This document shows, in pieces, positions 1,953 through 23,754 of a stretch of 64,000 nt of DNA. The DNA lies in assembly GCA_965223005.1 (NCBI GenBank), contig CBDCVK010000002.1, positions 224,001 to 288,000 on the forward strand, read 5' to 3'. How positions within the stretch are numbered: the stretch's first letter is position 1; the number at the start of each line of letters is the position of its first letter. Source of the stretch: Terriglobia bacterium. GTDB lineage: Bacteria; Acidobacteriota; Terriglobia; JAJPHL01; JAPKYU01. The notes beneath the pieces were generated by a model that had not been told where the DNA came from, searched no databases, and worked only from the letters and a program-made list of their open reading frames with translations. The translations under genes and the position numbers were made by a program.

Positions 1953-2000
1953 TAATACTGCTGCCTTCGCGTGATCGAGATCTGGGAGCCGAAGGACTTT
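1953..2000 (-). pseudogene. Remnant of tyrosine recombinase N-terminus
   Basis: Encodes KVLRLPDLDHAKAAVL, nearly the same as KLGLPDLDQAKAAVL of the recombinase fragment at 26934. Confidence 0.65.
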
Positions 2001-2062
2001 GGTGTTTTTCCAAGAATCGTTTAGAATCGGCACAGCAAGCTAGCATTCGGGGTAGGTATGCT

Positions 2063-5296: not shown

Positions 5297-5390
5297 AATC
5301 AGGGCGGCTGACCCGGCGCACGCCTGTCGTGTGCCCCATCCGGCTTCCGCGCCTGACGTTCGGCTTTACTCGCTCAGGGAGATTTTGAAA

Positions 5391-6857: not shown

Positions 6858-7049
6858 AGCACTTGGTTTGAGTTGCAAATTCGCGTTCGCATACTGCGCG
6901 ATTCTGCGGAAAGGTTAAGCTGCGTTCACGCGGCTTTGTCTTCACTAGGCCAGCCGTTTTACGGCTGGTATTGTTCCGAGTTGCCGCAAGCGGCAGAAAC
7001 TAACGAAGTCTGGTAGATGTCTCGCCGGCGTGGTCACCCTCAGGCGACC

Positions 7050-7132
7050 ACATTGCCTTCCACGAAGACGTACTTGAATGTCGTCGAGAACTGGTTCGAA
7101 AAGTTCGGGGACCAGCAGGGTGGGGCGCAATA
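7050..7132 (+). pseudogene. Possible C-terminal remnant of a PD40-repeat Ser/Thr kinase
   Basis: Ends LNVVENWFEKFGDQQGGAQ*, resembling the LNVVLNWFEEL tail common in acidobacterial kinases; no upstream body. Confidence 0.3.
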
Positions 7133-7513
7133 ACAGCCCACATTCCTGTTGAATCCCTCTCCCACAGCAGACCCGGTTCGAGAGCGAGCAATCCACTCAT
7201 CTACAGGTCCATACGGTCGTCGAAGTCGCAAGATCCCGGTAAGTCGGCAAAGCGGACAAGTGGTCCGTCGGGTTCAGGTCCCCCGAAACGGGCACTCCTC
7301 AACGATTGACGCGCACTCTCCAGAAAACACGCCACTCCGGTCCCTTCTGTGCTTGTCTGGGCTTGGCCCAATCGGCTGCAAGGGCCAACAATACCGGACC
7401 GGATAGATTGCCCCTAACCCCCAGTTCTTTCCGGTCCGGCTGCCAACTCCCGAATAGTCGCCAACTAAGAAACTATCGCAGCGCTTTGCCGCTCCTCGTC
7501 TGACGTCGGCGGG

Positions 7514-7570
7514 CACTTGGACGTATAGTCGGCTATCCGGACAAGTGCCAACCTGGAGGCAGCGTCACTC
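7514..7570 (+). repeat. 34-bp site A plus partial type-2 loop, copy 3
   Basis: Exact CACTTGGACGTATAGTCGGCTATCCGGACAAGTG at 7514-7547; an extra half-site GTCGGCAAAGCGGACAAGTG lies at 7243-7262. Confidence 0.85.
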
Positions 7571-7662
7571 TAATAGCTGAGAGCAGATAGGTCCCGCCTT
7601 GTCGCCGTCCGACAAGAGACTCGCCGCTCGCCACAGCATGTGACGACCTGCACCTTTGGGTG

Positions 7663-7700
7663 ATTTCCGATTTCTGAGTTGTAGCGGGGGCTGGTACCAT
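7663..7700 (+). repeat. Third repeat family (TTCCGA..GGGCTGGTACCAT), partial copy
   Basis: Matches the 5' half of the 76-bp repeats at 8611 and 13544. Confidence 0.55.
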
Positions 7701-7770
7701 AGCAGCTAGGAACTACGGCGTATCTGGCATTGGAAAATCAATGTCTCAAACAGACAAAGGAGGTACCGGC

Positions 7771-8559
7771 ATGAGGCGTAATAAACTGAGGGACCTTCTG
7801 AACGCCGGCCAGCCCACCATCGGCACTCACCTTCACAGTTCCTGGCCATCCGTTGTGGAAGTCGTCGGACATACCGGCATGTTTGACTACGTTGAATTCG
7901 TTTCCGAATACGGGCCGTTTGACTTATATGCGCTAGACAACTTTTGCCGGGCAGTGGAGTTATTCGATTTGTCGGCGATGATCAAAGTTGATCAGGAACC
8001 GCGACGCTTCCTGGCCCAGAGAGCCATCGGCGCTGGCTTTCAGAGTGTTCTTTTTGCGGACTGCCGCACCGTCGACGACGCCCGCGAATGCGTGAGGGCT
8101 GTGCGCCCCGAGACACCGGAGTCAGGCGGTCTTCACGGCGTCGCGCTGCGCCGAAGCACCTACATGTTGCATGCTGGGATGCCCGAGTACGTCCGGGCGT
8201 TGAATGAAGTCGTCGTAGCCCTAATGATCGAAAAGAAATCGGCAGTGGAGCAACTGGAGGAAATCGTCTCGTTGGGCGAGATTGATATGGTTCAGTGGGG
8301 ACCGGCAGATTACTCAATGAGCATTGGCCAGCCCGGGGCCTGGGATTCCCCGGAAGTCAGGGCCGTTGAACGCAGGGTCATCGAGACTTGCTTGAAGAAG
8401 GGCATACCGCCACGTGCCGAGATCGACACCCTGGACAAGGCCAAGTATTACCTGGACATGGGCGTGCGCCACTTTTGCCTCGGTACAGACATCATGATTC
8501 TCCACGGGTGGCTGAAGGAAAATGGTGAAAGCTTACGGAATGCTATTTCTGACTCATAG
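7771..8559 (+). CDS. HpcH/HpaI aldolase family protein
   Basis: GGAGG RBS; motifs MIEKKSAVEQLEEI and QWGPADYSMSIG. Confidence 0.85.
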   Translation: MRRNKLRDLLNAGQPTIGTHLHSSWPSVVEVVGHTGMFDYVEFVSEYGPFDLYALDNFCRAVELFDLSAMIKVDQEPRRFLAQRAIGAGFQSVLFADCRTVDDARECVRAVRPETPESGGLHGVALRRSTYMLHAGMPEYVRALNEVVVALMIEKKSAVEQLEEIVSLGEIDMVQWGPADYSMSIGQPGAWDSPEVRAVERRVIETCLKKGIPPRAEIDTLDKAKYYLDMGVRHFCLGTDIMILHGWLKENGESLRNAISDS

Positions 8560-8610
8560 TCCAGCCGCCTCAGTGGGTGTGGCGGGCGCCACATAACGTC
8601 ACTATGTGTC

Positions 8611-8686
8611 ATTCCGAATTACCGAGTGGCGGCGGGGGCTGGTACCATCACCCGCCCGCGCTCGGCCCCAGGGCAGAAGCCTCGCA
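8611..8686 (+). repeat. Third repeat family, 76-bp copy
   Basis: ATTCCGAATT..GGGCTGGTACCATCA..GAAGCCTCGCA, colinear with 13544-13619. Confidence 0.65.
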
Positions 8687-8756
8687 AACCCACCCAAGCA
8701 GCACCATACCCCGCTCTTGCCACAATTACGTGTGTGTTGGGGTTTCTGAAGTTTCC

Positions 8757-9428
8757 CTATCGGCTCCGGCGGGAGTGCCCGCGCTGAAGGATCGTCAAAT
8801 GAACGCGAGCGACGATGTGCATGTAGCCCCCTGCCGTCGCGTACCGATCTGCGGCAGCGGCCCTGATGTGAGCGAGCGCGTCGGCTTTTCGCCCGAGCGC
8901 ATCGAAATGCAAACCGACATACAGGTGGGCGTAGAACTTCGATTGGCCGCCGGCGCCGGCCATGGCCAACACCTTGTCGGGGCTGATCGCGCCTTGGAAC
9001 ATCTGGTAGACCTCGCGCATCGGAACGCGCGCGTCGGGTCCCACTGGCAGAAGGGCCGCCCTCGCCTTCTCGACCGATTCCGCACGCGTCACGCAGAGAA
9101 AGTGCCAGGCCGCGTTTTCCACGTCGTTCGGGTTCACGGCGCGGTGGGATTCAAACTGCGCGCGACAGTCACGGTAGCGACCTGCGTAGTACAGAGCGAT
9201 GCCGCGCTGCCAGAGATAGGGCGCCTTATCAGGCACAAGCTTGGCCACATTGTCGAACTCGGCGACCGACTCCGCTACGCGGCCGCCCTGGAAATGGGCA
9301 ATGGCACGATCGAGGGCACGTTCCGCCGCCGACTGTGCGTTGGCCGCGGCGGCGAACGCGAACATCGCCGACAGGGTGAGAATTTGGCGCATCCGGGCCG
9401 GGGTCGACGACCGGATGACGGCCGACAT
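8757..9428 (-). CDS. TPR-containing protein (NlpI-like)
   Basis: WQRGIALYYAG, NPNDVENAAWHFLC, FYAHLYVGL; signal peptide present. Confidence 0.75.
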   Translation of the reverse strand: MSAVIRSSTPARMRQILTLSAMFAFAAAANAQSAAERALDRAIAHFQGGRVAESVAEFDNVAKLVPDKAPYLWQRGIALYYAGRYRDCRAQFESHRAVNPNDVENAAWHFLCVTRAESVEKARAALLPVGPDARVPMREVYQMFQGAISPDKVLAMAGAGGQSKFYAHLYVGLHFDALGRKADALAHIRAAAADRYATAGGYMHIVARVHLTILQRGHSRRSR

Positions 9429-9441
9429 TTTGGCCTTCGCG

Positions 9442-10674
9442 TCAGCGGCGGAGATCGAGACACACGAGGGTGTTTTCGTTTCGCACATACAGGAATCCGT
9501 CGGCGATCGCCGGGTAGGCCCGGACGGTCGGCGGAAGGATCTGGGCGCGTACCAGCGGCCGGAAGGCATCGGGCGACGCTGTGGCCATCACCAGCTCGCC
9601 GCTTTCGCGCAGGATTAGCAATCGATTGCCGACGAGCGTGACTGTGCCGGCACGGAACCGATCCTCACTCCAGCGAACCTTGCCCGTCGCCAGCTCGACC
9701 GCGCGGAAACTCGGGCCGAACTCCTGACGTCCGTGAAACCCGTACAAATGTCCGTGTTGGTACGCACTCGTGGCGTAGTGATTCGAGAGCGCCTCGTCGG
9801 ATGCCCATAGGTCGATAAGCTTCGAACCGTCCACGCGCAGCACCGCCGCGCCCGGTCCGTACTCGGCCGACACGAAGATCAGGTCCCCGATTACCAGCGG
9901 CGTCGCGACGTTGACCGACGACGCCTGCCGCGCCCGCCACGCTCGCCGAAACTGCACCGTCCCTGTCGCCGGATCGAGGCCGACGAGACCGTTGCGCGTG
10001 AGGAAGATCGCAGATCGGCGGCCGACAATCGTCGCGCCGGTCGCCGACGAATAGCTCGCCTCATCGTCGGTGGCCGTCCAGAGCACTTTGCCGTTTTTCA
10101 CGTCGAACGCGACGATGCCGGCCCTTCGGCCGCCGATGTTGGCCAGAAGCCTTCCATCCTCGACCAGCGGCGAACCTGCGGCACCGAAATAGCCTTTCGG
10201 CACGCTAAACCGCGCCCTGGTGTCTTCGCTCCAGATCCGCTTGCCGTCCGCGAGGCCGATCGCGTGAAGCTGCCCCTCTGCTCCGAACGTGTATATGACG
10301 TCATCCACGACGACGGGCACCGCCCGCGGCCCTTCGTCGAACCCGAAATCGTCGCGATACGAGGTGGGATAAGAATACCGCCACTGGCTCGCCCCGGTGC
10401 GCGCGTCGAGGGCCTCAACCACTTCGCTGTCGGATACCCGATGAAACAGGATCACTCGGCCTTGAACGACAACCGGGCCGCTCAACCCGGCGCCGATGGA
10501 CTTGCGCCAAACCTCACGCGGGCCGCTCGCACCCCAGGTCTCCGCGAGCGCCGGGCCCCGTGAGACGCCGTTGCGCTCTGGGCCGAGGAACTGCGGCCAG
10601 TCCTCAGCAGCCGTTTGGATCGCGATAGCGAACCCGACGACGACCGATAACATCAGTTGATGTCGAATAGACAT
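9442..10674 (-). CDS. PQQ-like beta-propeller repeat protein (BamB-like)
   Basis: DWPQFLGPERNG N-terminal motif; repeated ALD..TG..W tryptophan-docking motifs. Confidence 0.88.
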   Translation of the reverse strand: MSIRHQLMLSVVVGFAIAIQTAAEDWPQFLGPERNGVSRGPALAETWGASGPREVWRKSIGAGLSGPVVVQGRVILFHRVSDSEVVEALDARTGASQWRYSYPTSYRDDFGFDEGPRAVPVVVDDVIYTFGAEGQLHAIGLADGKRIWSEDTRARFSVPKGYFGAAGSPLVEDGRLLANIGGRRAGIVAFDVKNGKVLWTATDDEASYSSATGATIVGRRSAIFLTRNGLVGLDPATGTVQFRRAWRARQASSVNVATPLVIGDLIFVSAEYGPGAAVLRVDGSKLIDLWASDEALSNHYATSAYQHGHLYGFHGRQEFGPSFRAVELATGKVRWSEDRFRAGTVTLVGNRLLILRESGELVMATASPDAFRPLVRAQILPPTVRAYPAIADGFLYVRNENTLVCLDLRR

Positions 10675-10802
10675 ATTCGATTGGAGTCGAATTCGTGATC
10701 CGGAATCTTGTCGGTCCCCGCCTGAGACTGAGTATGCCGGGCAGGAATTCAGCACCCCGAGAGCCTGAACACCGTGGGATGCTCATCACGATTCCTCCCT
10801 GG

Positions 10803-13448
10803 CTACGACAGAAGGCGGATCACCCCCGAGGTCCCGTCGACTTCGACCTGCTGGCCGTCGTGAAGCTTGGTCATCAATCGGTCGATGCCCACAACGCACG
10901 GCTTTCCGTACTCGCGCGCGATCACCGCACCGTGCTGCAGAATCCCACCGATCTCGAGCACGACCGCGGCGGCATTCACGAACAGCGGCGTCCAGCCCGG
11001 ATCCGTCGTATACGCCACCAACACGTCCCCCTTCTTGACCGGCTTCTCGTGGGGGTCGCGGAGCACCTTGACCGGACCCGTCACCACTCCGGGTGACACG
11101 GCCATCCCGCTCAGCTCACCGGGCTTCTCCTCGCGGGGGGGCGGGCGAAGGATCAGGCCTCGCGAGTCGATTACTTGAGGGAACTCCGTCACCTGTGCCT
11201 CGAGTCTCTTGATGAAGCGCGTCCGCTCCTCGCGGACTTCTCGCAGGTCCAACGAAGGATCCACGCTAGCCGATTCGAGCTCGCGTAACGTCAGATCGAA
11301 GACGTCCTCGGCTGCGTCGAGACGACCCTCCCGGACCAGGCGTCGGCCCTCGATCAGGGCACGCTTGCGAAGCGCGGAGGTGAACAAGACGCAGTGGTAC
11401 TTGGGCGTGTCGCGGGTTCCGGCGAACAGGTCGATCATTCGATAGACCCGGCGCAGCAGCGACCGCCGCAACCAACCCGAGCGCCTCATCAACTTTTCGT
11501 AGGCTCGCTGCCGCTCCTCTATCTGGCGCTGGTGTGCGGCCTCCGGATCAAAGCCCTCGTCGTCGACGGACATGATGGACATCTGCCACAGGGCGAGAAG
11601 GGGGTCGTCCCCGTAACGCGGGCTCGCCAGGTCCATCTCCAGGGGGCCGCGACAGCCAAACTTCGAGATGAAGGCGTCCCACGCGCTCAGGAACTCCGCC
11701 GACACCTGTCGATTCTCGATTTGTTCGGCCAACCGGGTCAGGTCCTGGAAGTCGGATCGGTCCAACAGGCTGGCCAGGCGAAACAGCGCTATCCCCATCT
11801 CGACGACGACGTTGCCCTTGAAACCCCGCTTGAGCTTCTCAGCGAGGGCTTTCGCCTCGGCTGAGTTCCTGCGGACTACGAGATCAGCCGACACCAGCCC
11901 AGCGAGCCCGGCGAGGAGCACGGACATCGTGACGTTGAACATCGGTCCCAGAGGGGCGGTGTAAGTGCGCCGGAATTCGTCGAGAGGAAGGGTGTAGTCG
12001 ACGTTCTTGGTTAGCTCTAGCTCGAAGGCGTCGACCTTCCGCTGGTACGCTCGGCGTGCGCGCTCGGGCGACAGAATGGTCCACGCCATGTTCCAGAGGA
12101 AGCCACGCAGCTGCCACAAGACCTTAGGAATGAACCTCAGGGTCCGGAACCCCACCCAGGGCGGTCTCGTGGCCGCGCGGTACCGCTTCGCGTCGACGTT
12201 GGCCAGGATCTCGCCCATCAGTACGTCGTTGTAGGCGCTGTTCTGAGACATTTTCTTTGGGCTCGCCAGCCACATCATGTTGGAGAAATTCATGTACATG
12301 CGGCCGCCCGCGAAGAACACCGGGCCCTTCTCAGGGTTGACGTCGGTTCCGACGAGATCCTCGAGAACGGGGGATATGAGATCCTCCATCCAGTCGAGCC
12401 CCATCGGCGAGATCGGCTTGTTGATCGTCAGCCCCTTCGACAGGGCAGCGTCCGCGTACAGCCTCCTACGTTCACCGGGCTCGGTCAGCATTTCTGGCGG
12501 GAGCGGCACGTGGGTGGTAATAGGGCGCGCCTGCAGCACGTGGAGCTGACCGCCGGCGTAGGCCCACTCGATGTCTGTCGGCTTCTCGTAGAGGTCCTCG
12601 ATTCGACATATCACGCCGGTCAGCTCGCTGAGCTGGGCGTCGCTGAGGGTGAGCTCCGCCGAACGATAGCCCTTCCGCTCCATAGTGCCGCCATCTGAAC
12701 CTAGCCAGATCGAGACCTGCTTGACGCCAAGTTTCTTGTCCAAAACCTGACGACTGACCTTGTCGACTCTGAAGTTGTCGGGTGATGCGAGGCCGGCGAC
12801 GACCGACTCCCCCAGGCCCCAGTTCGCGTCGATGACGGCCTCGTCGTAATCGTTCGTGAGTGGGTTGAGCGAGAAGCCCACGCCGGCGACCTCGCTGTCG
12901 ATCTGCTGCTGCACGACCACGGCGATGCGCGGCGACAGAACGTCGAAGCCGTGCTCCTTCTTGTAGACGAGCACGCGCTCATCGAGGCTCGAGGCAAAGC
13001 AGTGTCGCACCGCGTCGTCCAGATCGGCCGGGCGCACACCCAGTCGGGTCTTGTAGCCACCGGCGAACGAGGCTGACGCCAGGTCTTCCTCGGGTGAGGA
13101 CGAGCGCACTGCGAACAGCACGTCGTCGCCTAACGCTGTGAGGTTCTTGCGAAGGTCCTCCAGGGATTGACGCTGGGCTGCCGTCAGCCTTAGGGCAAGG
13201 CAGAACCCCTTCAGCTCGTTGCAGAGGGTCGCCCACTTGTCCGCCGTCGCGTCGGCGAGCGCCGCCCACGCCGCGGACGCCTGAATCTCGTCGAACCAGG
13301 GCACGAAGAACTCCGTCGTGAGCACGGCGCCGGGGGGAACGGGCAAGCCCGCCTCGACCATCCGTATCAACGAATAGCCCTTGCCGCCGACCTCCGCGAG
13401 GGTCGTCTCCTCGTTGCCGGGAAACGAAACGATCAGGGTCACGTCCAT
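10803..13448 (-). CDS. PEP/pyruvate-binding phosphotransferase (RPH-like architecture)
   Basis: N-terminal ATP-grasp (VGGKG, AVRSSSPEEDLASASFAG, LQARPIT) and C-terminal swivel His domain (TDPGWTPLF, HGAVIAREYG). Confidence 0.85.
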   Translation of the reverse strand: MDVTLIVSFPGNEETTLAEVGGKGYSLIRMVEAGLPVPPGAVLTTEFFVPWFDEIQASAAWAALADATADKWATLCNELKGFCLALRLTAAQRQSLEDLRKNLTALGDDVLFAVRSSSPEEDLASASFAGGYKTRLGVRPADLDDAVRHCFASSLDERVLVYKKEHGFDVLSPRIAVVVQQQIDSEVAGVGFSLNPLTNDYDEAVIDANWGLGESVVAGLASPDNFRVDKVSRQVLDKKLGVKQVSIWLGSDGGTMERKGYRSAELTLSDAQLSELTGVICRIEDLYEKPTDIEWAYAGGQLHVLQARPITTHVPLPPEMLTEPGERRRLYADAALSKGLTINKPISPMGLDWMEDLISPVLEDLVGTDVNPEKGPVFFAGGRMYMNFSNMMWLASPKKMSQNSAYNDVLMGEILANVDAKRYRAATRPPWVGFRTLRFIPKVLWQLRGFLWNMAWTILSPERARRAYQRKVDAFELELTKNVDYTLPLDEFRRTYTAPLGPMFNVTMSVLLAGLAGLVSADLVVRRNSAEAKALAEKLKRGFKGNVVVEMGIALFRLASLLDRSDFQDLTRLAEQIENRQVSAEFLSAWDAFISKFGCRGPLEMDLASPRYGDDPLLALWQMSIMSVDDEGFDPEAAHQRQIEERQRAYEKLMRRSGWLRRSLLRRVYRMIDLFAGTRDTPKYHCVLFTSALRKRALIEGRRLVREGRLDAAEDVFDLTLRELESASVDPSLDLREVREERTRFIKRLEAQVTEFPQVIDSRGLILRPPPREEKPGELSGMAVSPGVVTGPVKVLRDPHEKPVKKGDVLVAYTTDPGWTPLFVNAAAVVLEIGGILQHGAVIAREYGKPCVVGIDRLMTKLHDGQQVEVDGTSGVIRLLS

Positions 13449-13543
13449 ACCTTCGTGCCCGATGGCCTGGCCGGCCAGCGGGGACTTGGGAGGTGCGCTC
13501 CCACAAAGGTAGCTCCAAACAGTCATATTGACCTCATATTAGT

Positions 13544-13619
13544 ATTCCGAATTCCAAGATTCTGGCTCGGGCTGGTACCATCAGGACCCGCGGCCGACCC
13601 GCGTGGCGGAAGCCTCGCA
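13544..13619 (+). repeat. Third repeat family, 76-bp copy
   Basis: Colinear with 8611-8686. Confidence 0.65.
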
Positions 13620-13809
13620 CGTGCGGTGTGATGGCGCCCGGCGATTGTGACGTACTTTGTGACATAACCCTGCCATCCAAGCCCAACTAACCCCTTGTCA
13701 CTCGGTGTGCGTCAGTGTCACTCGTCGGAGGCACAGAATGGGGGGATGCACCGCTGCGCGTATCACTTGGGCTCACTCCCTCTCACTCCTTACTACGTCG
13801 CTTCCTGAA

Positions 13810-13854
13810 CTCCGGAACCAAAGGCCGCAGGTTCGAATCCTGCCGGGCGTACCA
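13810..13854 (+). repeat. tRNA-Arg(CCG) 3' half (att-site duplication)
   Basis: CTCCGGA anticodon loop, T-arm GCAGG-TTCGAAT-CCTGC, acceptor strand and CCA; no 5' half upstream; identical to 23611-23655. Confidence 0.85.
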
Positions 13855-13955
13855 CTCTTCTTCTCGGGGAATCAACAGGTTGGCGGGAATTGGCGTTAGG
13901 CGAGATTGGGCCGTTTTGGTGCAGGTGTGCAAGAAGTGTGCAAGATGGGACATGG

Positions 13956-14084
13956 CTAGTTAATCCCGGCTACTTCCTTCTGGATCGGAATTACCTGCTG
14001 CTGTTGCTGCTGTTCGGCCTCTAGGTATTCCTCGGCTTTGAGCAGAGCTTCTTGCTGGTCCTTTTCGTCAATGATGTCATACCT
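13956..14084 (-). pseudogene. Probable C-terminal tail of a phage-type tyrosine integrase
   Basis: RYDIIDEKDQQEALLKAEEYLE..*, resembling the catalytic-Tyr tail of island integrases; points toward the tRNA half. Confidence 0.5.
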
Positions 14085-14507
14085 GGTGCCAAGAAGCTAG
14101 GTACGGCTGTCCGCCGCCTGAGGGTTCAAGCGGTGAGGTGCCGCCTGTTCCGAAATGTTCTGATGCGTGTAGTACGGTCTGGGTTCAATGCAACGACGAG
14201 AATCCATGGGACCCAGGGGCAGCCTGCGACTGCGCCAAGCGCCGCTGCATCGATCGCATTAGTGGAGAGATTCGGCACATTGAATGTGCGTGTAGCGGAC
14301 TCGTGATTGGAGGGCGACTGGGAGCGCCGAGGAAGTGGGGAACGACAGGTGCGCATAAAGTCTCTGGACCCGAAGATGTTTCCCAAGAGACGAGCCGCTC
14401 TCGCGAAGGTCGCGCATTGCTGGCGACGGAATCAAGAAAGCGGACTGAACAGCAGCAAAAGAAGAAGTAGCCAGTCAAGGTGCCCGCCATCGTATGGACG
14501 GTTAGGG

Positions 14508-14639
14508 CAGGTGTGCACTTTGGTGTGCAGGAAGTGGGGCAGAAATGCTCCCACTTAAGCGGACAACTGGGAATGCTATCCGCATTGCTTTTCTGCCCCT
14601 TGTGGTACTGATTCGGCTGGAGTAGGTTGCGGAATTCCC
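14508..14639 (+). mobile_element. Integrative element right end (GTGTGCA arm repeats)
   Basis: 132 bp with 5 mismatches to 23479-23610; GTGTGCA direct repeats at 14511 and 14523; abuts a tRNA half. Confidence 0.75.
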
Positions 14640-14684
14640 CTCATAACCCAAAGGTCGTCGGTTCAAATCCGACCCCCGCAACCA
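14640..14684 (+). repeat. tRNA-fMet(CAT) 3' half (att-site duplication)
   Basis: CTCATAACCC..GTCGG-TTCAAAT-CCGAC-CCCCGCAACCA; identical to 23110-23154. Confidence 0.88.
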
Positions 14685-14956
14685 AACTAGATCAGCGGGT
14701 TAGAGCCGCTCCCCCGGAAACAACCTAGGTTCGTTAGGGTGCGAATCCCTGCTTGGCCCCTTTGTTTCGTAAAACTCGGTTGCACTGCAGGCCGACCCAG
14801 AAGGGTGATCCACCGCTGATGCGAATGATCCTCTCCATGGACGACTCCCAGAATGGCGACGAGGACGTTTGCCTGCGACAAACAGGCAAGATCTTCACGG
14901 AAAATTTACTTAGCTCAGAAGCCAAAGTCGGTTAGAATCGGCGCCCATTCTCGACC

Positions 14957-16636
14957 ATGTTATTGGGGTGCGTGACCATGTCCTTCTGCTCGACTCAATC
15001 CCTGCGGCTGGCCTTCTGCATAGTCCTGGCATCGGTGTTCGCGAAGAACCTTCTGGCCGAGCGACCGAAGCCCCAACTGGTGCTTCTGATAGTGGTCGAC
15101 GAACTCCGCGGAGACATGTTGTGGCGATTCCAGGATCGATTCGGTCCCGGAGGGTTGCGCTACTTGATCGAGGAAGGTATCGCATACAAGCAGGCCTACT
15201 ATCGCCACTCGACGACCTTCACCGCGTCTGGCCACGCGACTCTGGCCACCGGCGGCCACGCGGCACTGCATGGATTTCCCGGAAACGATTGGTACGACCC
15301 GAGACTCGGCCGTCGTGTCTACTGTGTGGAAGACGATCGGTACAACGTGATCGACCAAGCCGGAGAATTGCATACTGGAACCTCGCCTCGGAACCTCACC
15401 TCAACTACCTTCGGCGACGAGCTTGTTCTGGCAACCGACGGGCGGGCCCGCGTCTTTTCCGTATCGATTAAAGATCGGGGGGCGATCATTCCCGGAGGTC
15501 ATCTCGGTAAAGCCTTCTGGTACTCGAAAAACACCGGTGGATTCATCACCAGCACCTACTACTTCCATGAGTATCCAGGATGGGTAAAGAGGTGGAATGG
15601 GGCGAAAAAGGCCGACCGCTACCAGAACCAAACCTGGGACCTGTTGCGGGATCGATCCAGCTATCTCTACGCAGCCCGCGACGACCGCTCCAGCGAGCGA
15701 TCCTATAAGCATCTAGGCAGGACTTTTCCTCACCCGCTGGGCAATCCCAATCCCCAAGACTTCTACTCCGCATTACGCTTCACGCCGATGTCCGATGAAT
15801 TGACCCTGGAGTTCGCCAAAGAGATTCTCGCCCAGGAATCACTGGGAAAAGGTGGGGCAACCGATGTCTTGGCCGTGAGCTTGTCGGCAAGTGATTACAT
15901 CGGCCATGCTTTTGGCCCCAACAGCCTTGAGACAGAGGACAATCTGCTGCGTCTCGATCGATACCTGGCGGAATTTTTCGGGTTCGTCGACGGCCATGTC
16001 GGTCTGGACCAGACGCTCATCGTGCTGTCTTCGGATCGTGGCATCGATGCGATCCCGGAATTCAAGGTCGGCCTCGGCATGGCTGCCGGTCGGCACCGTC
16101 CTGACCGCTTCCTCAGGACTATCAACGACGAACTGAAGAAACGGCTGGATACCCAGAAGGACCTGGTGAAGGTCTTCTGGAATCCGTCCCTCTATCTGAA
16201 TCTGGAAGTCGTACAGGATCTGGGTCTTCAGGTTGAAGAGGTGGAACGACTGGTGGCCGCAGAGATCCTGAAGCTTCCCGGGTTCGCGCTTGCCGTGACG
16301 AGGACCGACCTGCTGGCTGGGCACCTCAGTTCCGGTCCGATTCAGCAGAAGGTGCAACTGGCTTTTCACCCCCAGCGATCGGGCAACGTCCTGGTCGTAC
16401 AGAGTCCTTCCTGGTATCTGTATCCGGACGCAGAAAAGTATTCCGCCATGCACGGCTCTCCCTACACCTACGATACCTACGTCCCGATCTTGATCGCTGG
16501 TGCTGGAATCCGACCGCAGGTTGTCCAGCGTCAGGTCGCTCCCCAGGACATCGCTCCGACAATCACGAGTTTGTTGGGAGTGGTGCCGCCGTCGGGTTCA
16601 ACTGGGACACCGCTGGTCGAAGTTCTCGGAAACTGA
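14957..16636 (+). CDS. Alkaline phosphatase family protein (PafA-like)
   Basis: VVDELRGD, Thr-nucleophile motif TASGHAT, SIKDRGA, DYIGHAFGP, MHGSPY.YD.YVP; the DHG ligand motif reads DRG. Confidence 0.85.
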   Translation: MLLGCVTMSFCSTQSLRLAFCIVLASVFAKNLLAERPKPQLVLLIVVDELRGDMLWRFQDRFGPGGLRYLIEEGIAYKQAYYRHSTTFTASGHATLATGGHAALHGFPGNDWYDPRLGRRVYCVEDDRYNVIDQAGELHTGTSPRNLTSTTFGDELVLATDGRARVFSVSIKDRGAIIPGGHLGKAFWYSKNTGGFITSTYYFHEYPGWVKRWNGAKKADRYQNQTWDLLRDRSSYLYAARDDRSSERSYKHLGRTFPHPLGNPNPQDFYSALRFTPMSDELTLEFAKEILAQESLGKGGATDVLAVSLSASDYIGHAFGPNSLETEDNLLRLDRYLAEFFGFVDGHVGLDQTLIVLSSDRGIDAIPEFKVGLGMAAGRHRPDRFLRTINDELKKRLDTQKDLVKVFWNPSLYLNLEVVQDLGLQVEEVERLVAAEILKLPGFALAVTRTDLLAGHLSSGPIQQKVQLAFHPQRSGNVLVVQSPSWYLYPDAEKYSAMHGSPYTYDTYVPILIAGAGIRPQVVQRQVAPQDIAPTITSLLGVVPPSGSTGTPLVEVLGN

Positions 16637-17182
16637 GTCGAGCGGGAACTACGTGGACTAGGAATAATCGCCAATCCCACTGCCGCGTCTAGAAAGAAAC
16701 CAGCTTTAGAAAATCGCGGCGCTCCGATGTCGAATCAGCAACTTGAATGCTGACCCTTCACAAAGGCCGCTTACGCGTACCGTGGGACCGGCTCAACTCG
16801 GCTCCGTGCGCGCGATATTCGTGGGATTTACGAGAGCGCCTCGCCCATCCCCGCGAAAACACCGAACCTGTATGCAAGCAGTTTTCTTGACGCAATCCGC
16901 AATCTGTTCCGAGATGCTGCTTTCGGGGTACACGCGAAGATTGTCGAATGACCCTAATCTCTTGGTCCGACAAAAGGGTTGAGGAGTTGGTTCCGTCTAG
17001 GTGAGTCCGCAGATCCTCGGGTAGGGATCCGAACTGGACTTGGACCGGCGGCGTTCTTGGGTTCGATTTGGGTTCAATAACTATTACCCAGCCTTCCTGA
17101 AGCTTCCTCAACATTGCTATGCGTACCGCAAAATGAATCACTTAGCCAAAAGGGGTTAAACTCATAACCAAAAGGGGTTAAA

Positions 17183-17225
17183 CTCATAACCCAGGTCGTT
17201 GGTTCAAATCCAACCCCCGCAACCA
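17183..17225 (+). repeat. tRNA-fMet 3' half (variant allele)
   Basis: CTCATAACCCAGGTC-GTTGG-TTCAAAT-CCAAC-CCCCGCAACCA; preceded by a 22-bp tandem duplication at 17146-17189. Confidence 0.82.
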
Positions 17226-17285
17226 AAAAATCAAGGGGTTAGGGGACGTTACCCTAGCCCCCTACTTTTTTATCTAACAGCTATC

Positions 17286-17477
17286 TAACAACTCGCCAGG
17301 CACGGGCTCTGAAACAGAGAAGTGAGAGCCTTGACACTAAGAAGTCGGACCTCGCAAGGGTCAAAGGGTCGCGGCACAGTGTTAACAACTCGCCAGGCAC
17401 GGGCTCTGAAACAGAGAAGTGAGAGCCTTGACACTAAGAAGTCGGACCTCGCAAGGGAAGGGTCGCGGCACAGTGTT
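17286..17477 (+). repeat. 97-bp tandem duplication
   Basis: Unit TAACAACTCGCCAGG..CACAGTGT starts at 17286 and 17383; near identical with one short indel. Confidence 0.9.
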
Positions 17478-17549
17478 TATGTAGCTCCGCTCCAAGAAAC
17501 TTTTGGTGAAAAATGCTTCAACTAGAACGCCCGGTCAACCTGACTCCCC

Positions 17550-17634
17550 GACTTGGCTGTATAGTCGGCTATCCGGACAAGTGATCCTCTATGCCCGCCA
17601 GGGTAGTGGTCAGTTTCCGATAAGGGCGTTATAC
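17550..17634 (+). repeat. Paired-site element (type 1), copy 4, truncated after GTTATAC
   Basis: GACTTGGCTGTATA-GTCGGC-TATCCGGACAAGTG plus type-1 loop and GTCAGTTTCCGATAAGGGCGTTATAC. Confidence 0.8.
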
Positions 17635-17729
17635 TCGGAATTCTCAACCCTTCTCCACTCTCATAGTCGGCCGTCACGCGACAAGGTTTCTTGTCTTTCC
17701 TACGCTCCCATCCGGGTTCAACCTTGGGT

Positions 17730-18308
17730 TCAAGAGGCGCGGAGTGGGGCCGGTGGCACAACTTGGTTGATCGTCCCGTTGCCTACGTCGTAGACGAAGC
17801 CGGAGACGACCAGTTGATCTGGCGTTCCGGGGGTGTGGCGGAGTCGTTCGACGTCGTCTTGCACAGACGTGGTAGGGTCGCTGATTGCCATTGCCGATAC
17901 TTCGTCGACACTGAGGCCGAGCCGTTCTGCCACCTGTCCCTGGATAGCCGGGTTGGCGAGACGAGACATTCCGCAATCGGTGTGGTGGATAACGACAAGT
18001 TCCGGCTGCCTAGGGCTGGTTCCCGGCTGGCTGAAGGCGGCGGCCAGAACGCCGAGAATGCCGAGATCTCGTATCACTGCGGGGGTGATCCTGCCGCCTG
18101 CGTTACGCATGACGACCGCGTCGCCGAGTCCGAGCCCGAAAAGGTGTGCAGGATCGACGCGGGCGTCGAGGCAGGTCAAGAGGATCGTTGACATACGGGG
18201 CGAAATCTTGAGGTCTCCTGCCGCGAACTGCTCAGCAAAGCTCCGGTTGCGATCGAGTAGCGTGGTCAGGTCAGCCGTCTCTCCCCCTGTTGTCTGTTCC
18301 TTAGTCAT
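17730..18308 (-). CDS. Beta-class carbonic anhydrase
   Basis: Zn ligand motifs CLDAR and HHTDCG, plus RNAGGR; RBS AGGAGG. Confidence 0.88.
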   Translation of the reverse strand: MTKEQTTGGETADLTTLLDRNRSFAEQFAAGDLKISPRMSTILLTCLDARVDPAHLFGLGLGDAVVMRNAGGRITPAVIRDLGILGVLAAAFSQPGTSPRQPELVVIHHTDCGMSRLANPAIQGQVAERLGLSVDEVSAMAISDPTTSVQDDVERLRHTPGTPDQLVVSGFVYDVGNGTINQVVPPAPLRAS

Positions 18309-18530
18309 ACTGTCTTCCTCCTTTCTCAATGTATTATCCGTGCCCAAGACGACCGGCGGGCCATCGCTTGGTCCGTCGTCGACATAGTCCACCCGGCCCT
18401 CCTCTCGGCAGAAGCCTTGTCATCCATGGCGCCCCCTGGGAAGTTTGAGCCCGGAGGTCTTGCCCTAAGGGGTACAACGCCGGGGAGAGCTGAGAAGTTC
18501 CCGTCCCTTCCTCAAGCGTGATTTTCTGGA

Positions 18531-19097
18531 TCAGGCGGGATCGCGCCCGACTGGAGCTGCCGCTTCATGTTCCGCCCTCCATTCTTTGTTTTGGTAACAA
18601 AATTCAGGGTTTTTCAGTGTGGAATGTCCCTGCGCGCGGTGGTAGGTCTCTAAATCAGGAACGCGGGTCAGCATGACCTTCATTAAATTCTTGAGGGCCC
18701 TCAGTTTATTCACCACAGTTGGCTTTGCGACGGAACTATCCGCAATATAGCGTCGGGCAATCGTTTCAAAACCCTCCGGATCTCGCCCGACGATTTCCTT
18801 CACCACGCTGGTCGGCGCGCTTACTTCCATAGTTCCGTTGAACGCTTCCTCATTGTAATCCGAGACCTGGGAATACGTGTAGATTGGGAGTCCGGCCGCC
18901 TTTACCGCTTTTCGAAACATTTGTTTGGACATTTTCTGAGCCACAACCTTTCTTCCCAGGATCTTCCCGATAATGTCGGCCATTTCCTGCGTCGAGAGGA
19001 TCTTGGGCCCGGTCGGGCTATAGGTTTTTCCTGCGTGTTTTGCTGGGTCCTTAAGGATATGGGCCGCCACCGCGCCCATATCCTCATCGGACGGCAA
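18531..19097 (-). pseudogene. 5'-truncated NmrA-like NAD(P)H-binding protein
   Basis: EDMGAVAAHIL..HAGKTY.PTGP C-terminal half only; the Rossmann N-terminus is absent. Confidence 0.65.
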
Positions 19098-19195
19098 GTT
19101 CCACCGTCGAGGGATAGCCCCGGTCGCCCGTAGTCCCGTCCCCAGAGATGATCATCGCGTGGGACCCTCTCAGCAGCGTGGTCGTGAGGTGAGCT

Positions 19196-21463
<2,268 letters not shown>

Positions 21464-21979
21464 CTAAGACTGCAGTGCCAACGGCGAACGAGTCGGCAAC
21501 CATTTTGTTTACAATCGCTTGTTCTAATCTTCTGACTTCCCGCCCGGTTTTAGGCCGACCGGTTGCTCCGAATAATTCCGACGCTTTCGCCAGCGGTGGC
21601 CTTCCGCAATCCGTCCAAGGGGCTGTGGACCGCTCGACGGCACCCGGTGACAGACTGCCTCGATTAGACCGCCGATCAACCTGCCGGTCAAGGCCGTAGC
21701 ACCTTACCGCGCTTTCCGCACCTAGGGTGCTGGGCAGGCTCCACTTGGTTAACAACAACGCTGGATAGATCCTGACTAACGGGCTAGGGTTGACTGAAGG
21801 CTCTCAACTCGCGGACCGTCGCCGACACCGAAGTTACCGTCCACCCTGCTCGTAAAGATTGCCACCGGTCTGATCCAGAATTCTGACGATACATGAGCTT
21901 ACCGGACGCTTACGATGTTTAACCCTGACATCGCTCCAGTGGCTAGCCAATTGACGAAGGGCGGCGCCGGGATCTGGTG

Positions 21980-22790
21980 TCACTTCTCTTTTCGACGGGC
22001 TGAGGAACTGGCGGCTTGAGCAGCCACAGTAGGCAGAGTGGCCGTGGTAGGTTGGCCACTTACCCTTCCAGAGTTTGTGAAGTCACCAAGCCGGAAGAAG
22101 TAGTTGCCCTTGGTCAAAATAATCAGCCCTTCAGGAGCCTTGCTTCCGGTGGGGAGGAGGTCTACGCAATTTTCGTGCAGATCGCCTAGAACCTGTTCGG
22201 CATCCTCATCCGCCATAACATGCGGCACCCCTATCTCAGTTAGGATTTTGCAGTCTATTGGATAGCCGTGCGCCTTGTACCTGACCATGAAGGCTTGCTT
22301 GATTTTCTCTTTTGCGTCTGGAGTTACTCCATGCCATCCTTCCAGCGCCTGCTCTAGGTACTGCTCGCAAATTTCGATCGCGGCCGCATAGGCTCCGATC
22401 CAAAATGGATCGAGTTTATCGGCCATGGCCATTTTCACCGTTGGATCTTTGGTTGCCTCCACTCGTTGGACCGCCTCTCCAATTGAGTTAGCAGGGAAAA
22501 ACACCCCTTTCCTCTCTGGATGAAGGACCTGTGGATCAACAGGGCCAAGTTGCGCTGAGGTTGTCAATACCATCGTGTCGGCGGCGAGTGTCAGTAGCGT
22601 TGCTGCACTCTTAGCCATAAACGGCACGACTACCCTGAAGGTCCCAAACCTTGCCCGGCAGAGACTAGCGAGTGCCGAAGCGGCATCCGCACTACCGCCG
22701 CGGGAATGAAGTATTAGATCAATCCCATTCCCTTTGGGCAGTTTGCGGATGACCTTTTTGAAAGCGTAGAGCAGGTCCGTGGACAGAAGC
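21980..22790 (-). pseudogene. SDH-family Clp-fold serine protease, N-terminus disrupted
   Basis: The frame extends upstream of the ORF call through IDLILHSRGGSADAA..VPFMAKSAATLLTLAAD..LGPVDPQ; an in-frame stop lies upstream with no good start. Confidence 0.7.
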
Positions 22791-23109
22791 CTGAAAGGTA
22801 GACTTGTCCATTTAGATCACCAGCCACGCGGCGAGCCTAGTAGAAGGCTTCGTAGGCGCAGTACTGCGTGTTGTCTTCGGGATTTGCGGACGACTGCCAG
22901 CAGCGCTTTAAACTCACGATACTGGTCAACCGCCTTCTTGAGTTCGAGATATTGGCGCCTAGGTGCGGCGCGCTGGGAAACTTTGGTTGGGATGGGGGAA
23001 AGGAGCGGGGGAGTTCTTGGGTTCGATAAGCATTCCCGAGCCTTCCTGAAACTTCCTCAACATTGCTATGCGTACCGCAAAATGAACAACTTAGCCCAAA
23101 GAAGTTAAA

Positions 23110-23154
23110 CTCATAACCCAAAGGTCGTCGGTTCAAATCCGACCCCCGCAACCA
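23110..23154 (+). repeat. tRNA-fMet(CAT) 3' half
   Basis: Identical to 14640-14684; preceded by an ~70-bp end shared with 17090-17160. Confidence 0.88.
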
Positions 23155-23168
23155 ACCTTTCGATTTTA

Positions 23169-23441
23169 TTCTGCACCGGGCTGGGCGCGACGAATCCGCC
23201 GGTCACCTCAGGCGAGCCAGGGCCGGGGACCGAACCACTGGCGCGGGTGGTGGTGCCGGTGGAAGCGCAGGTGGGCGGCCAGCCGGCGACGGTGCACTTC
23301 GCCGGGCTGGCACCGGGCTTTGTGGGCCTCTACCAAGTCAATGTAGAAATCCCGGCAGATGTGGCGCCGGGCTCCGAGGTTCCGTTGGTGTTCCTCCAAA
23401 ACGCTGTCCCTAGCAACACCGTCACCATCGCCGTCGAGTAG
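23169..23441 (+). pseudogene. TIGR03437-type C-terminal domain fragment
   Basis: FCTGLGATNPPV..FAGLAPGFVGLYQVNV..SNTVTIAVE*; no 5' part. Confidence 0.75.
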
Positions 23442-23478
23442 CCCGTTTCGCCTCGTTTAGGTCTCTGAATCCCACCGC

Positions 23479-23610
23479 CAGGTGTGCACTTTGGTGTGCA
23501 GGAAGTGGGGCAGAAATGCTCCCACTTGAGCGGACAACCGGGAAGGCTATCCGCTTTGCTTTTCTGCCCCTTGTGGTACTGAGTCGGCTGGAGTAGGTTG
23601 CGGAATTCCC
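23479..23610 (+). mobile_element. Integrative element right end (GTGTGCA arm repeats)
   Basis: Near-identical to 14508-14639. Confidence 0.75.
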
Positions 23611-23655
23611 CTCCGGAACCAAAGGCCGCAGGTTCGAATCCTGCCGGGCGTACCA
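23611..23655 (+). repeat. tRNA-Arg(CCG) 3' half
   Basis: Identical to 13810-13854; followed by IHF-like AATCAGTTGCTTA and TCTAACA repeats. Confidence 0.85.
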
Positions 23656-23754
23656 CTAAAATCAGTTGCTTATAGAGATTTCGCCTAGGTCCTTTTGCCT
23701 TCCATCTAACACCCGTCTAACAAACGGGCTTTCGTCGGATTCTACGCTAGGCCG

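What the first reader, a model, noticed from the sequence alone, without database searches (positions are those of the whole stretch)
14508..23655. One element end joined to two different anticodon cores: apparent tRNA target switch
Seen: the 132-bp end (5 mismatches between copies) finishes GGAATTCCC and is followed by CTCATAA-CCCAAAGGTCG (fMet) at 14640 but by CTCCGGA-ACCAAAGGCCG (Arg) at 23611. The TCTAACA-type left end likewise follows fMet (17225) and Arg (23655). The cores differ at 3 of 7 positions, while the adjoining CCAAAGGYCG is shared. Known: most lambda-type integrases need overlap homology; Tn916- and CTnDOT-type enzymes tolerate mismatches. Inference: an integrase recognising the CT..CCAAAGGYCG context and tolerating anticodon mismatch could use both tRNAs and might even create chimeric tRNAs.
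Basis: partly seen in the sequence, partly recalled or inferred. Interest (0 to 1): 0.7.

Follow-up and report, generated by a model that had tools for sequence, protein, structure and literature searches.

The report
Mixed tRNA island graveyard, shared arm
The repeated 132-base end is the outer arm of a small family of integrase-borne islands that occur at both the initiator-Met and the Arg(CCG) tRNA gene, and here a block of decayed initiator-Met islands lies inside a decayed Arg island array, so it is an ordinary though instructive relic and not proof of one promiscuous enzyme.

Summary
Two 132-bp copies (14508-14639 and 23479-23610, 127 of 132 identical) are the only ones in the genome. 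Each abuts a tRNA 3' half that starts at base 32: fMet at 14640, Arg(CCG) at 23611.

The interval holds no intact tRNA and no integrase gene. It is a decayed tandem array 3' of the intact tRNA-Arg(CCG), which lies 13.4 kb left of the window. The order is island B (intact integrase), unit A1 (Arg half), three fMet-type units (F1, T1, A2), then unit D (Arg half).

The 132-bp copy (X1) is the integrase-distal arm of "A-type" units. It shares the doubled GTGTGCA motif with the integrase-proximal arm. That motif is genus-specific. It follows tRNA-Arg(CCG) in two genomes and tRNA-fMet, beside a full-length integrase gene, in a third.

The two X1 copies bracket exactly 8,971 bp. This is best read as a composite from an fMet array that recombined into the Arg array through A-type homology. 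One public contig joins 14507 directly to 23479.

A family-level switch between fMet and Arg(CCG) is supported. Of 42 tRNAs these two have the most alike anticodon stems (14 of 17 flanking bases). A single mismatch-tolerant integrase and chimeric tRNAs are not shown.

The parts
1..13809 (+). Distal part of island B. The island runs from the intact tRNA-Arg(CCG) at C2:210611-210687 (13.4 kb left of the window) to window 13809. Its integrase and PrimPol/AAA_25 genes lie left of the window.
   Evidence: PF00589 2.8e-24; PF09250 plus PF13481. The TTGTGAC arm repeats occur at both ends.
13600..13809 (+). X3, the integrase-distal arm of island B. The doubled TTGTGAC motif is at 13645-13663.
   Evidence: Copies 80-91% identical precede 3' halves of Pro(CGG), Pro(GGG), Val(GAC) and Val(TAC) elsewhere in the genome.
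13810..13854 (+). tRNA-Arg(CCG) 3' half (bases 33-77 of the gene). It marks the left edge of unit A1.
   Evidence: 45 of 45 identical to the intact gene.
13855..13964 (+). Y_A, the integrase-proximal arm of A-type unit A1. GTGTGCAAGAAGTGTGCA is at 13925-13942.
   Evidence: It is 95% identical over 233 nt to the flank of the intact tRNA-Arg(CCG) in G003.
13965..14162 (-). C-terminal remnant of an integrase gene, about 66 codons with one internal stop.
   Evidence: tblastn/blastx against the G001 integrase: 35% over 66 aa, E 4.5e-4 against the genome and 3e-9 pairwise. Also listed.
14508..14639 (+). X1, left copy of the 132-bp integrase-distal arm of A-type units. It contains doubled GTGTGCA at 14511-14529 and a 10-bp inverted repeat GGGGCAGAAA/TTTCTGCCCC.
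14640..14684 (+). fMet 3' half with T stem GTCGG/CCGAC (a non-host variant). It marks the left edge of unit F1.
   Evidence: The same variant occurs in G017.
14685..14760 (+). Y_F, a degenerate integrase-proximal arm (GGTTCGTTAGGGTGCGAAT).
   Evidence: It aligns with the flank between fMet and an integrase gene in G041 and G106.
14957..16636 (+). Cargo of F1: a type I phosphodiesterase/nucleotide pyrophosphatase.
   Evidence: PF01663, 3.2e-33.
17029..17160 (+). X2, the integrase-distal arm of fMet-type units. GGTTCGAT-type double repeat at 17060-17078.
   Evidence: Four further copies in the genome each precede an fMet 3' half.
17161..17225 (+). fMet 3' half of host type (T stem GTTGG/CCAAC). 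It has a 22-nt duplication across the core and lacks 2 nt. It marks the left edge of unit T1.
   Evidence: (family D8).
17226..17290 (+). Y_T arm: a hairpin plus TCTAACAGCTATCTAACA at 17273-17290.
19196..21379 (-). Cargo of T1: a catalase-peroxidase-like gene.
   Evidence: PF00141, 2.9e-72. Homologues at 67-76% identity lie elsewhere in relatives.
23017..23109 (+). X2', the right end of unit T1.
   Evidence: 89% identical to 17068-17175.
23110..23171 (+). fMet 3' half (variant T stem) followed by 17 nt, of which 16 match the flank between tRNA-fMet and the A-type integrase in G001. This is the left edge of the truncated A-type unit A2.
23169..23441 (+). 3' fragment of a TIGR03437 (Soli_cterm) gene; only profile positions 138-225 of 225 are present.
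   Evidence: 4.6e-26. The same adjacency of gene end, spacer and X1 start occurs in G003 (83% over 101 nt).
23479..23610 (+). X1', right copy of the 132-bp arm.
   Evidence: A copy 77-81% identical precedes an Arg 3' half in G002.
23611..23655 (+). tRNA-Arg(CCG) 3' half; left edge of the oldest unit, D.
   Evidence: 45 of 45 identical to the intact gene.
23656..23730 (+). Y_D arm with TCTAACACCCGTCTAACA at 23705-23722. The motif and spacing match those after the fMet halves.

Best explanation
Window 13810-23655 is a decayed, mixed tandem array of tyrosine-integrase islands that target the anticodon loop of tRNA genes. It lies 3' of the single tRNA-Arg(CCG) gene.

Each unit starts with the tRNA 3' half that it brought in its attP, followed by an integrase-proximal arm (Y). 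Each unit ends with an integrase-distal arm (X). The order is B (Arg; intact integrase, left of the window), A1 (Arg), F1 (fMet), T1 (fMet), A2 (fMet), D (Arg).

X1 is the distal arm of the A-type family. Its arms carry doubled GTGTGCA, taken here to be arm-type integrase sites. That family exists in an Arg(CCG)-specific form and an fMet-specific form.

The 8,971-bp block (14640-23610, or equally 14508-23478) is a composite of three fMet-type units that once sat in an fMet array. I infer that it entered the Arg array as an excised circle or as incoming DNA. It recombined homologously with the resident A-type unit, either in X1 itself or in the A-type body.

That event put X1 in front of an fMet half and X1' in front of an Arg half. 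All integrase genes in the block have since been deleted.

Shown: the anatomy, the arm motifs, their genus-wide links to both tRNAs, and the bracketing repeat. Inferred: the order of events, the circular intermediate, and homologous rather than integrase-mediated crossover.
For: 1. Array logic. The intact tRNA-Arg(CCG) is followed by an integrase gene 6 nt away. Two Arg 3' halves, each 45 of 45 identical, follow at 27 kb and 37 kb in direct orientation.

2. Arm pairing. Doubled GTGTGCA occurs at only 3 places in the genome: Y_A at 13925, X1 at 14511 and X1' at 23482. Doubled TTGTGAC marks both ends of island B.

3. A-type arms with Arg.
- Y_A follows the intact tRNA-Arg in G003, 95% identical over 233 nt.
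- X1 precedes an Arg half in G002.

4. A-type arms with fMet.
- In G001 the intact tRNA-fMet is followed by the same 25-nt arm block and a 370-aa integrase (PF00589, 7e-20).
- In the window, 16 of the 17 nt after the fMet half at 23110 match that G001 flank.

5. The block reads as a canonical fMet array. There are three units, each starting with an fMet half and ending in X2, X2' or X1'.
- Y_F matches fMet-plus-integrase flanks in G041 and G106.
- Y_T and X2 flank the fMet island on C10.

6. The X1 spacing of 8,971 bp equals the block length.

7. In one of four runs laid, a 656-nt contig joins 14014-14507 directly to 23479-23640 with no differences. It carries the X1'-type bases. A crossover giving this form must lie left of X1 position 50, not at the anticodon core.

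8. The integrase remnant beside Arg is only 35% identical over 66 aa to the fMet-linked enzyme. This argues for two enzymes rather than one.
Against: - No intact A-type island with an X1 end was found anywhere. X1 occurs in 2 of 11 genomes of the order. The X1 start motif found 1 locus in genome contigs and 0 in metagenome contigs.
- In G001 no displaced fMet half lies within 20 kb or elsewhere in the genome. So an X1 arm has never been seen on an fMet-linked element that still has its integrase.
- The identity of A2 rests on 16 of 17 nt plus the TIGR03437-X1 adjacency. In G003 that adjacency belongs to an Arg-linked unit.
- The two X1 copies are 96% alike, while the Y arms share only a 25-nt block and the integrase tails about 35-50%. 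This needs gene conversion, or a crossover inside X1, to be reconciled.
- fMet junctions of the same kind (X2|fMet half|Y_T) also lie inside arrays at tRNA-Pro(CGG) (C9) and near tRNA-Leu(TAA) (C2:54.6 kb). Neither has a bracketing repeat. Homologous insertion does not explain these.
- The single bridging contig comes from a k=31 graph, and 49 letters fit both sides.
Confidence: 0.5

Rival explanations
1. An A-type (or related) integrase binds the anticodon-stem half-sites that tRNA-fMet and tRNA-Arg(CCG) share. It tolerates the 3-nt difference in the 7-nt overlap. The X1|fMet and X1'|Arg junctions were then made by integrase-mediated exchange at the core between non-cognate att sites, for example a circle with X1|fMet attP recombining with the resident X1|Arg attR.
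For: - The stems are almost the same: CGTTGGG|CTCATAA|CCCAAAGG against CGTTGGT|CTCCGGA|ACCAAAGG. That is 14 of 17 flanking bases, the best of 42 tRNAs.
- Two independent arm families (GTGTGCA and TCTAACA) each occur with exactly this pair of tRNAs.
- Both junctions lie exactly at C32.
- Non-cognate junctions recur in the Pro(CGG) array, and an fMet junction lies 4.4 kb 3' of tRNA-Leu(TAA), neither with a bracketing repeat.
- Relaxed specificity and target switching are documented for an archaeal integrase family (PMC7253208, passages read).
Against: - No integrase gene lies in the interval.
- The Arg-linked and fMet-linked integrase tails differ strongly.
- 0 of 5 loops is a hybrid, and no chimeric tRNA exists.
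- The bridging contig in run X24 places the crossover left of X1 position 50, not at the core.
- Integration into the single-copy Arg(CCG) or fMet gene with a non-cognate 3' half would inactivate an essential tRNA (inference).
Confidence: 0.25
2. Long-range assembly artefact. The two short junctions are real, but the block is not where the assembly puts it. The chromosome would carry 14507 joined to X1'|Arg, and the 8,971-bp block would be a separate circle or lie at another locus.
For: One 656-nt contig in run X24 (depth 15.7) joins 14507 to 23479. Contigs of the block interior are present at similar depth in the same run.
Against: - The assembly has 10 contigs for 3.24 Mb, with no N.
- In the other three runs, contigs flanking X1 stop 30 nt into the shared 49 nt at both copies (14537/8 and 23508). 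This is what a k=31 graph does if both contexts exist.
- The runs may include the source sample, so they are not independent.
- Even if true, both junction types would still exist, and the block would be the circular intermediate that the main model proposes.
Confidence: 0.07
3. The X-arm plus tRNA-half modules are not element ends. They would be functional units in their own right, for example a tRNA-like non-coding RNA or a regulatory cassette that spreads by itself.
For: - X1 holds a conserved 10-bp inverted repeat in all three copies examined.
- GGTTGCGG at the end of X1 is complementary to CCGCAACC at the fMet 3' end (read from the sequence).
- X2|fMet|Y_T modules of about 280 bp recur at 3 sites away from the fMet gene.
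Against: - Rfam finds nothing at gathering score.
- Fold z-scores are weak: -2.6, -2.1 and -0.3.
- The modules sit where island-array logic predicts, with integrase genes beside the same arms in G001, G041 and G106.
- The G002 copy of X1 lacks the GGTTGCGG complement.
Confidence: 0.05

Closest known systems
Genomic islands in tRNA genes with an anticodon-centred attP, and tandem arrays of them (Islander database, PMC4383910; passages read)
   Same: - An intact tRNA gene is followed by an integrase gene.
- Displaced 3' fragments lie in direct orientation and start in the anticodon loop.
- Several units lie in series.
   Different: - Only island B has an integrase. Islander's definition of a tandem array asks for one integrase per unit.
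- The array mixes halves of two different tRNAs, which an interval search from a tDNA to its cognate fragments does not look for.
Target-site switching in the Int(pT26-2) family of archaeal integrases (PMC7253208; abstract and passages read)
   Same: One integrase family is spread over many tRNA genes (54 integrases on 14 tRNA genes in that paper). It shows relaxed specificity and recombination among decayed copies.
   Different: - Those are SSV-type 'suicidal' integrases with attP inside the int gene and no arm sites.
- Here the elements are bacterial, with separate arm repeats at both ends.
- The switch here is between two tRNAs with near-identical anticodon stems.
Lambda-type heterobivalent integrases with arm-type and core-type sites (recalled textbook knowledge; Williams 2002 NAR 30:866, seen only as a reference)
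   Same: Doubled short repeats occur at fixed distances from the core on both sides, with one motif per element type. The core is a 7-nt loop between inverted stem sequences.
   Different: Binding of the repeats by the integrase is inferred, not shown. No arm-binding N-terminal domain was detected by Pfam; only PF00589 hit.
Tn916/CTnDOT-type recombinases that tolerate heterologous overlaps
   Same: Such tolerance would in principle allow exchange between CTCATAA and CTCCGGA overlaps.
   Different: No hybrid or heteroduplex-derived loop was seen at any of the 5 junctions. The targets are tRNA genes with restoration of the 3' half, which is the lambda/P4-like style.

Membership tests
tRNA-targeting tyrosine-integrase genomic island (anticodon-loop sublocation) | A displaced tRNA fragment identical to the 3' part of an intact tRNA gene, in direct orientation | tested here: met
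   The Arg halves at 13810 and 23611 are 45 of 45 identical to C2:210643-210687, on the same strand.
tRNA-targeting tyrosine-integrase genomic island (anticodon-loop sublocation) | Identity with the tRNA begins in the anticodon loop | tested here: met
   All five fragments start at base 32/33.
tRNA-targeting tyrosine-integrase genomic island (anticodon-loop sublocation) | An integrase gene on board each unit | tested here: not met
   Island B has one (PF00589, 2.8e-24). Units A1, F1, T1, A2 and D have none. Only a 66-codon remnant lies at 13965-14162.
Heterobivalent (lambda-type) integrase system | Arm-type repeats on both sides of the core, the same motif within one element | tested here: met
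   GTGTGCA x2 occurs in Y_A and X1. TTGTGAC x2 occurs in Y_B and X3. Each motif is confined to such sites genome-wide.
Heterobivalent (lambda-type) integrase system | An N-terminal arm-binding domain in the integrase, and binding of the arms | tested here: inconclusive
   Pfam reports only the catalytic domain, at residues 159-329 and 173-331. About 150 N-terminal residues are unassigned. Binding cannot be tested with these tools.
Overlap-heterology-tolerant recombination (Tn916/CTnDOT-like behaviour) | Junctions with mixed or heterologous overlap sequences | tested here: not met
   0 of 5 loops is a hybrid. Each is exactly CTCATAA or CTCCGGA and matches the tRNA half to its right.
One element type using two tRNA targets | The same arm family beside two different tRNA genes in related genomes | tested here: met
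   The Y_A arm follows intact tRNA-Arg(CCG) in G003 and intact tRNA-fMet in G001. X1 precedes Arg halves in G000 and G002 and an fMet half in G000.
One element type using two tRNA targets | The same integrase protein at both targets | tested here: not met
   The Arg-linked remnant is 35% identical over 66 aa to the fMet-linked integrase. No close paralogue exists in the 4 genus genomes; the best is 38-40%, apart from one 136-residue partial match at 48% in G003. Only the C-terminal tail could be compared.

The most novel reading that the evidence does not exclude
Two separate integrase-arm families in this Terriglobia genus (GTGTGCA-type and TCTAACA-type) read the anticodon-stem half-sites that tRNA-fMet and tRNA-Arg(CCG) share. 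They cross between these two essential single-copy genes by exchange at cores whose overlaps differ at 3 of 7 bases. The mixed arrays at the Arg and Pro genes, and the fMet junction near the Leu gene, would then be fossils of integrase-mediated recombination between non-cognate att sites. Displaced tRNA halves in old islands would serve as harmless landing pads. If so, these are natural lambda-type integrases with relaxed overlap requirements, and they would offer a route by which attP specificity is re-programmed.
Probability: 0.2. Interest if true: 0.6.

Novelty: new member of a known kind. Interest (0 to 1): 0.32.

Why it matters
The locus is a clear fossil of how tRNA-targeting islands pile up, decay, recombine with each other and change target.

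It gives a specific, testable pair: tRNA-fMet and tRNA-Arg(CCG), whose anticodon stems are the most alike in the genome. It also gives a full-length integrase gene (in G001) with which the cost of a 3-base overlap change could be measured.

Practically, it shows that island finders which pair a tRNA gene only with its own fragments will mis-delimit such mixed arrays. It also shows that orphan halves of tRNAs absent from the genome can be relics carried in by elements.

It does not reveal a new kind of system.

Tried and rejected
- **Intron or split tRNA.** No 5' half lies upstream of any fragment. ARAGORN and Rfam found nothing. Rejected.

- **Wider search for X1.**
  - The start motif found 1 locus in genome contigs, which is the G002 contig.
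  - It found 0 loci in metagenome contigs.
  - The whole 132 bp found 2 of 11 genomes of the order.

- **Y_A 20-mer scans.** There were 6 loci in genome contigs and 4 in metagenome contigs. ARAGORN was run on 9 of these 10 (one metagenome locus repeats a genome contigs record). No tRNA lies next to any match; the one tRNA call is about 1.6 kb away. These are chance matches.

- **Close relatives of the island-B integrase.** The genome-contig scan gave 1 locus at 45% identity, too few for a tree of targets.

- **Flank after the fMet half at 14685.** 4 of 401 class genomes matched, counting G000. The two usable ones (G041, G106) gave the Y_F reading.

- **Read support.**
  - No listed contig spans X1 into the fMet half (14538-14657). 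Only a subset of pieces is listed, so this says nothing either way.

- **Synteny with G003 around tRNA-Arg.** It is not conserved beyond about 230 bp, so the ancestral flank could not be fixed.

- **Earlier findings of this scan.** None near this place.

- **Williams 2002.** The paper could not be opened. It is cited from recall and from a reference list only.

- **Literature searches.** Three were run. None of the listed titles or abstracts describes an array mixing halves of different tRNAs. I did not read all hits, so I do not claim that it is unpublished.

Full report
**What is there**

The window is G000:C2:224001-288000 of a 3.24-Mb, 10-contig assembly with 61% G+C. Record titles of its nearest public relatives read Terriglobia.

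ARAGORN and Rfam find no complete tRNA in the window. Five tRNA 3' halves lie between 13810 and 23655, all on the + strand and all starting at base 32/33 of the anticodon loop:
- Arg(CCG) at 13810
- fMet at 14640
- fMet at 17183, preceded by a 22-nt duplication
- fMet at 23110
- Arg(CCG) at 23611

It lies at 14508-14639 and 23479-23610 and is 127 of 132 identical, with mismatches at positions 50, 61, 67, 77 and 105. No base to the left of the two copies is shared. The spacing is 8,971 bp, and there are only two copies in the genome.

**Context: an island array at tRNA-Arg(CCG)**

The only tRNA-Arg(CCG) gene lies 13.4 kb left of the window, at C2:210611-210687. A 390-aa tyrosine integrase gene ends 6 nt after it, followed by a PrimPol/AAA_25 gene.

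Both Arg halves in the window are 45 of 45 identical to this gene. This is the signature of tandem islands that integrate in the anticodon loop and restore the gene with their own 3' half. Such islands are catalogued in Islander (PMC4383910, passages read).

In such an array each unit begins with its own tRNA half plus an integrase-proximal arm (Y). It ends with an integrase-distal arm (X) that abuts the next unit's half.

**Arm motifs define element types**

Three doubled short repeats are almost confined to these positions genome-wide.
- **TTGTGAC x2.** It occurs after the intact tRNA-Arg (Y_B) and in X3 at 13645, which are the two ends of island B. It also occurs in three further X3 copies and at one unrelated site.
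- **GTGTGCA x2.** It occurs at only three places: Y_A (13925), X1 (14511) and X1' (23482).
- **TCTAACA x2.** It occurs at five loci, each about 48 nt after a tRNA half. Four follow fMet and one follows Arg (23705).

So X1 is the distal arm of an "A-type" element whose proximal arm is Y_A. Next to Y_A, at 13965-14162 on the minus strand, lies a 66-codon remnant of an integrase C-terminus. No other integrase sequence lies in 13810-23655.

**A-type arms in related genomes**

The doubled GTGTGCA motif is found in 4 of 4 genomes of the genus. Elsewhere in the class there are 15 hits in 14 of 397 genomes, against 22 hits for the reversed control, which is chance level.
- **G003:** the intact tRNA-Arg(CCG) is followed by Y_A, 95% identical over 233 nt. 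About 3.7 kb further on lies a TIGR03437 gene end plus the start of X1, 83% identical over 101 nt to window 23413-23510.
- **G002:** X1 (77-81% identical) precedes an Arg half, which is followed by a Y_B-like arm.
- **G001:** the intact tRNA-fMet is followed by the same 25-nt arm block and a 370-aa integrase (PF00589, 7e-20).

The A-type family therefore occurs at both tRNAs.

The integrases differ, however. The Arg-linked remnant is 35% identical over 66 aa to the G001 enzyme, and by my count from the alignment about half of the last 45 residues match. The G001 enzyme has no close paralogue in the four genus genomes; the best full-length matches are 38-40%.

**The block between the X1 copies**

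Read as units, 14640-23610 is a normal fMet array without its 5' half.
- **F1:** fMet half, then Y_F, a phosphodiesterase gene and X2. Y_F aligns with the flank between fMet and an integrase gene in G041 and G106.
- **T1:** fMet half, then Y_T, cargo including a catalase-peroxidase-like gene, and X2'. Y_T and X2 are the two ends of the 6.5-kb island at the real fMet gene on C10.
- **A2:** fMet half, then 17 nt of which 16 match the G001 fMet-integrase flank, a truncated TIGR03437 gene (profile positions 138-225 of 225) and X1'.

A1 (13810-14639) is the Arg-type A unit. D (from 23611) is an older Arg unit with a TCTAACA-type arm.

The block is thus bracketed by A-type homology, and its length equals the repeat spacing.

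The simplest history is as follows. A composite of F1, T1 and A2, excised from an fMet array or brought in as DNA, recombined with the resident A-type unit. Deletions then removed the integrase genes.

**Public reads**

Six runs from three studies hold 70-72% of the sampled words of 14350-14850. They may include the source sample. Four of them were laid as Logan contigs.
- In three runs, contigs stop 30 nt into the shared first 49 nt of X1 at both copies. This is expected of a k=31 graph if both contexts exist.
- In the fourth run (X24), one 656-nt contig joins 14014-14507 directly to 23479-23640 with no differences. This is a form without the block.
- That contig carries the right-copy variants next to the Arg half. 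If it is real, the crossover lay left of X1 position 50, in the arm homology and not at the anticodon core.
- This is one contig, and 49 letters fit both sides, so it is only a hint.

For it:
- Of 42 tRNAs, Arg(CCG) is the closest to fMet in the 7 nt left and 10 nt right of the loop (14 of 17; next best 11 of 17).
- Two independent arm families straddle exactly this pair of tRNAs.
- This makes a switch, or cross-use, between these two genes mechanistically plausible. Target switching within an integrase family is documented in archaea (PMC7253208).

Against one promiscuous enzyme:
- The integrase tails have diverged.
- No loop is a hybrid (0 of 5), and there is no chimeric tRNA.
- A non-cognate 3' half would disable a single-copy essential tRNA (inference).

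**A wider and partly unexplained pattern**

The X3 arm (about 190 nt, 80-91% identical among copies) precedes halves of five tRNAs: Arg(CCG), Pro(CGG), Pro(GGG), Val(GAC) and Val(TAC). In this family the last 18 nt or so before the loop differ from copy to copy.

The Y_B arm, in contrast, follows tRNA-Arg(CCG) in 4 of 4 cases: G000, G001, G002 and G006.

X2|fMet half|Y_T junctions also lie inside the Pro(CGG) array on C9 and 4.4 kb from tRNA-Leu(TAA) on C2. Neither has a bracketing repeat. My model does not account for these. They keep integrase-mediated non-cognate exchange alive as a rival.

**Verdict**

The thing is a decayed mixed array of known-type islands.

The "target switch" holds at the level of an element family. 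It does not hold as a demonstrated property of one enzyme.

Novelty is low to moderate.

Noticed in passing
window 17286-17477 and 17507: The assembly has an exact 97-bp tandem duplication here. Contigs of all four public runs laid show the single-copy form (a joint skipping 97). All four also carry an extra GATG after 17507. This is either an assembly error or strain variation.
   Followed up: partly
window 17551-17642; inverted partial copy at 24675-24701: A repeat of about 90 nt has copies 86-93% identical at several sites in G001, G002 and G003, and 83-91% identical copies on several G000 contigs. It looks like a small dispersed, possibly MITE-like, element.
   Followed up: no
G000:C10:500784-501005 and G000:C3:15642-15881: X3 arms here are joined to 3' halves of tRNA-Pro(GGG) and tRNA-Val(TAC). 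ARAGORN finds no intact gene for either anticodon in this 96%-complete assembly. The Pro(GGG) orphan is also present in G001 (C4:1674354-1674575). These may be halves carried in by elements.
   Followed up: partly
G000:C10:814138-814214: ARAGORN starts the initiator tRNA of G000 with T, so base 1 could pair with A72. G003 and G041 also show TGCGGGG at that place. G001 has the usual C1 (CGCGGGG). This is unusual for a bacterial initiator if the 5' end is as predicted.
   Followed up: no
window 1904-6857 and G000:C10:809464-813930: The same kind of gene pair (PSCyt1/PSCyt2/PSD1 protein plus DUF1501 protein) is cargo both in island B at tRNA-Arg and in the 6.5-kb island at tRNA-fMet.
   Followed up: no
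G000:C10:806538-807590: An ORF with the Recombinase and Zn_ribbon_recom domains of a large serine recombinase, with no resolvase-domain match reported, ends exactly at the displaced fMet half.
   Followed up: no
window 14622-14629 versus 14675-14682: GGTTGCGG, 10 nt before the core in both X1 copies, is complementary to CCGCAACC at the 3' end of the fMet half. The G002 copy, which is joined to Arg, has GGTCCCGG instead. This may be chance or a trace of the arm's history with fMet.
   Followed up: no
G001:C4:2115134-2115178: An orphan Arg(CCG) 3' half lies on a different contig from the intact gene. It is preceded by yet another doubled arm motif (TGGTGGACAAA / TGGTGCACAAA).
   Followed up: no
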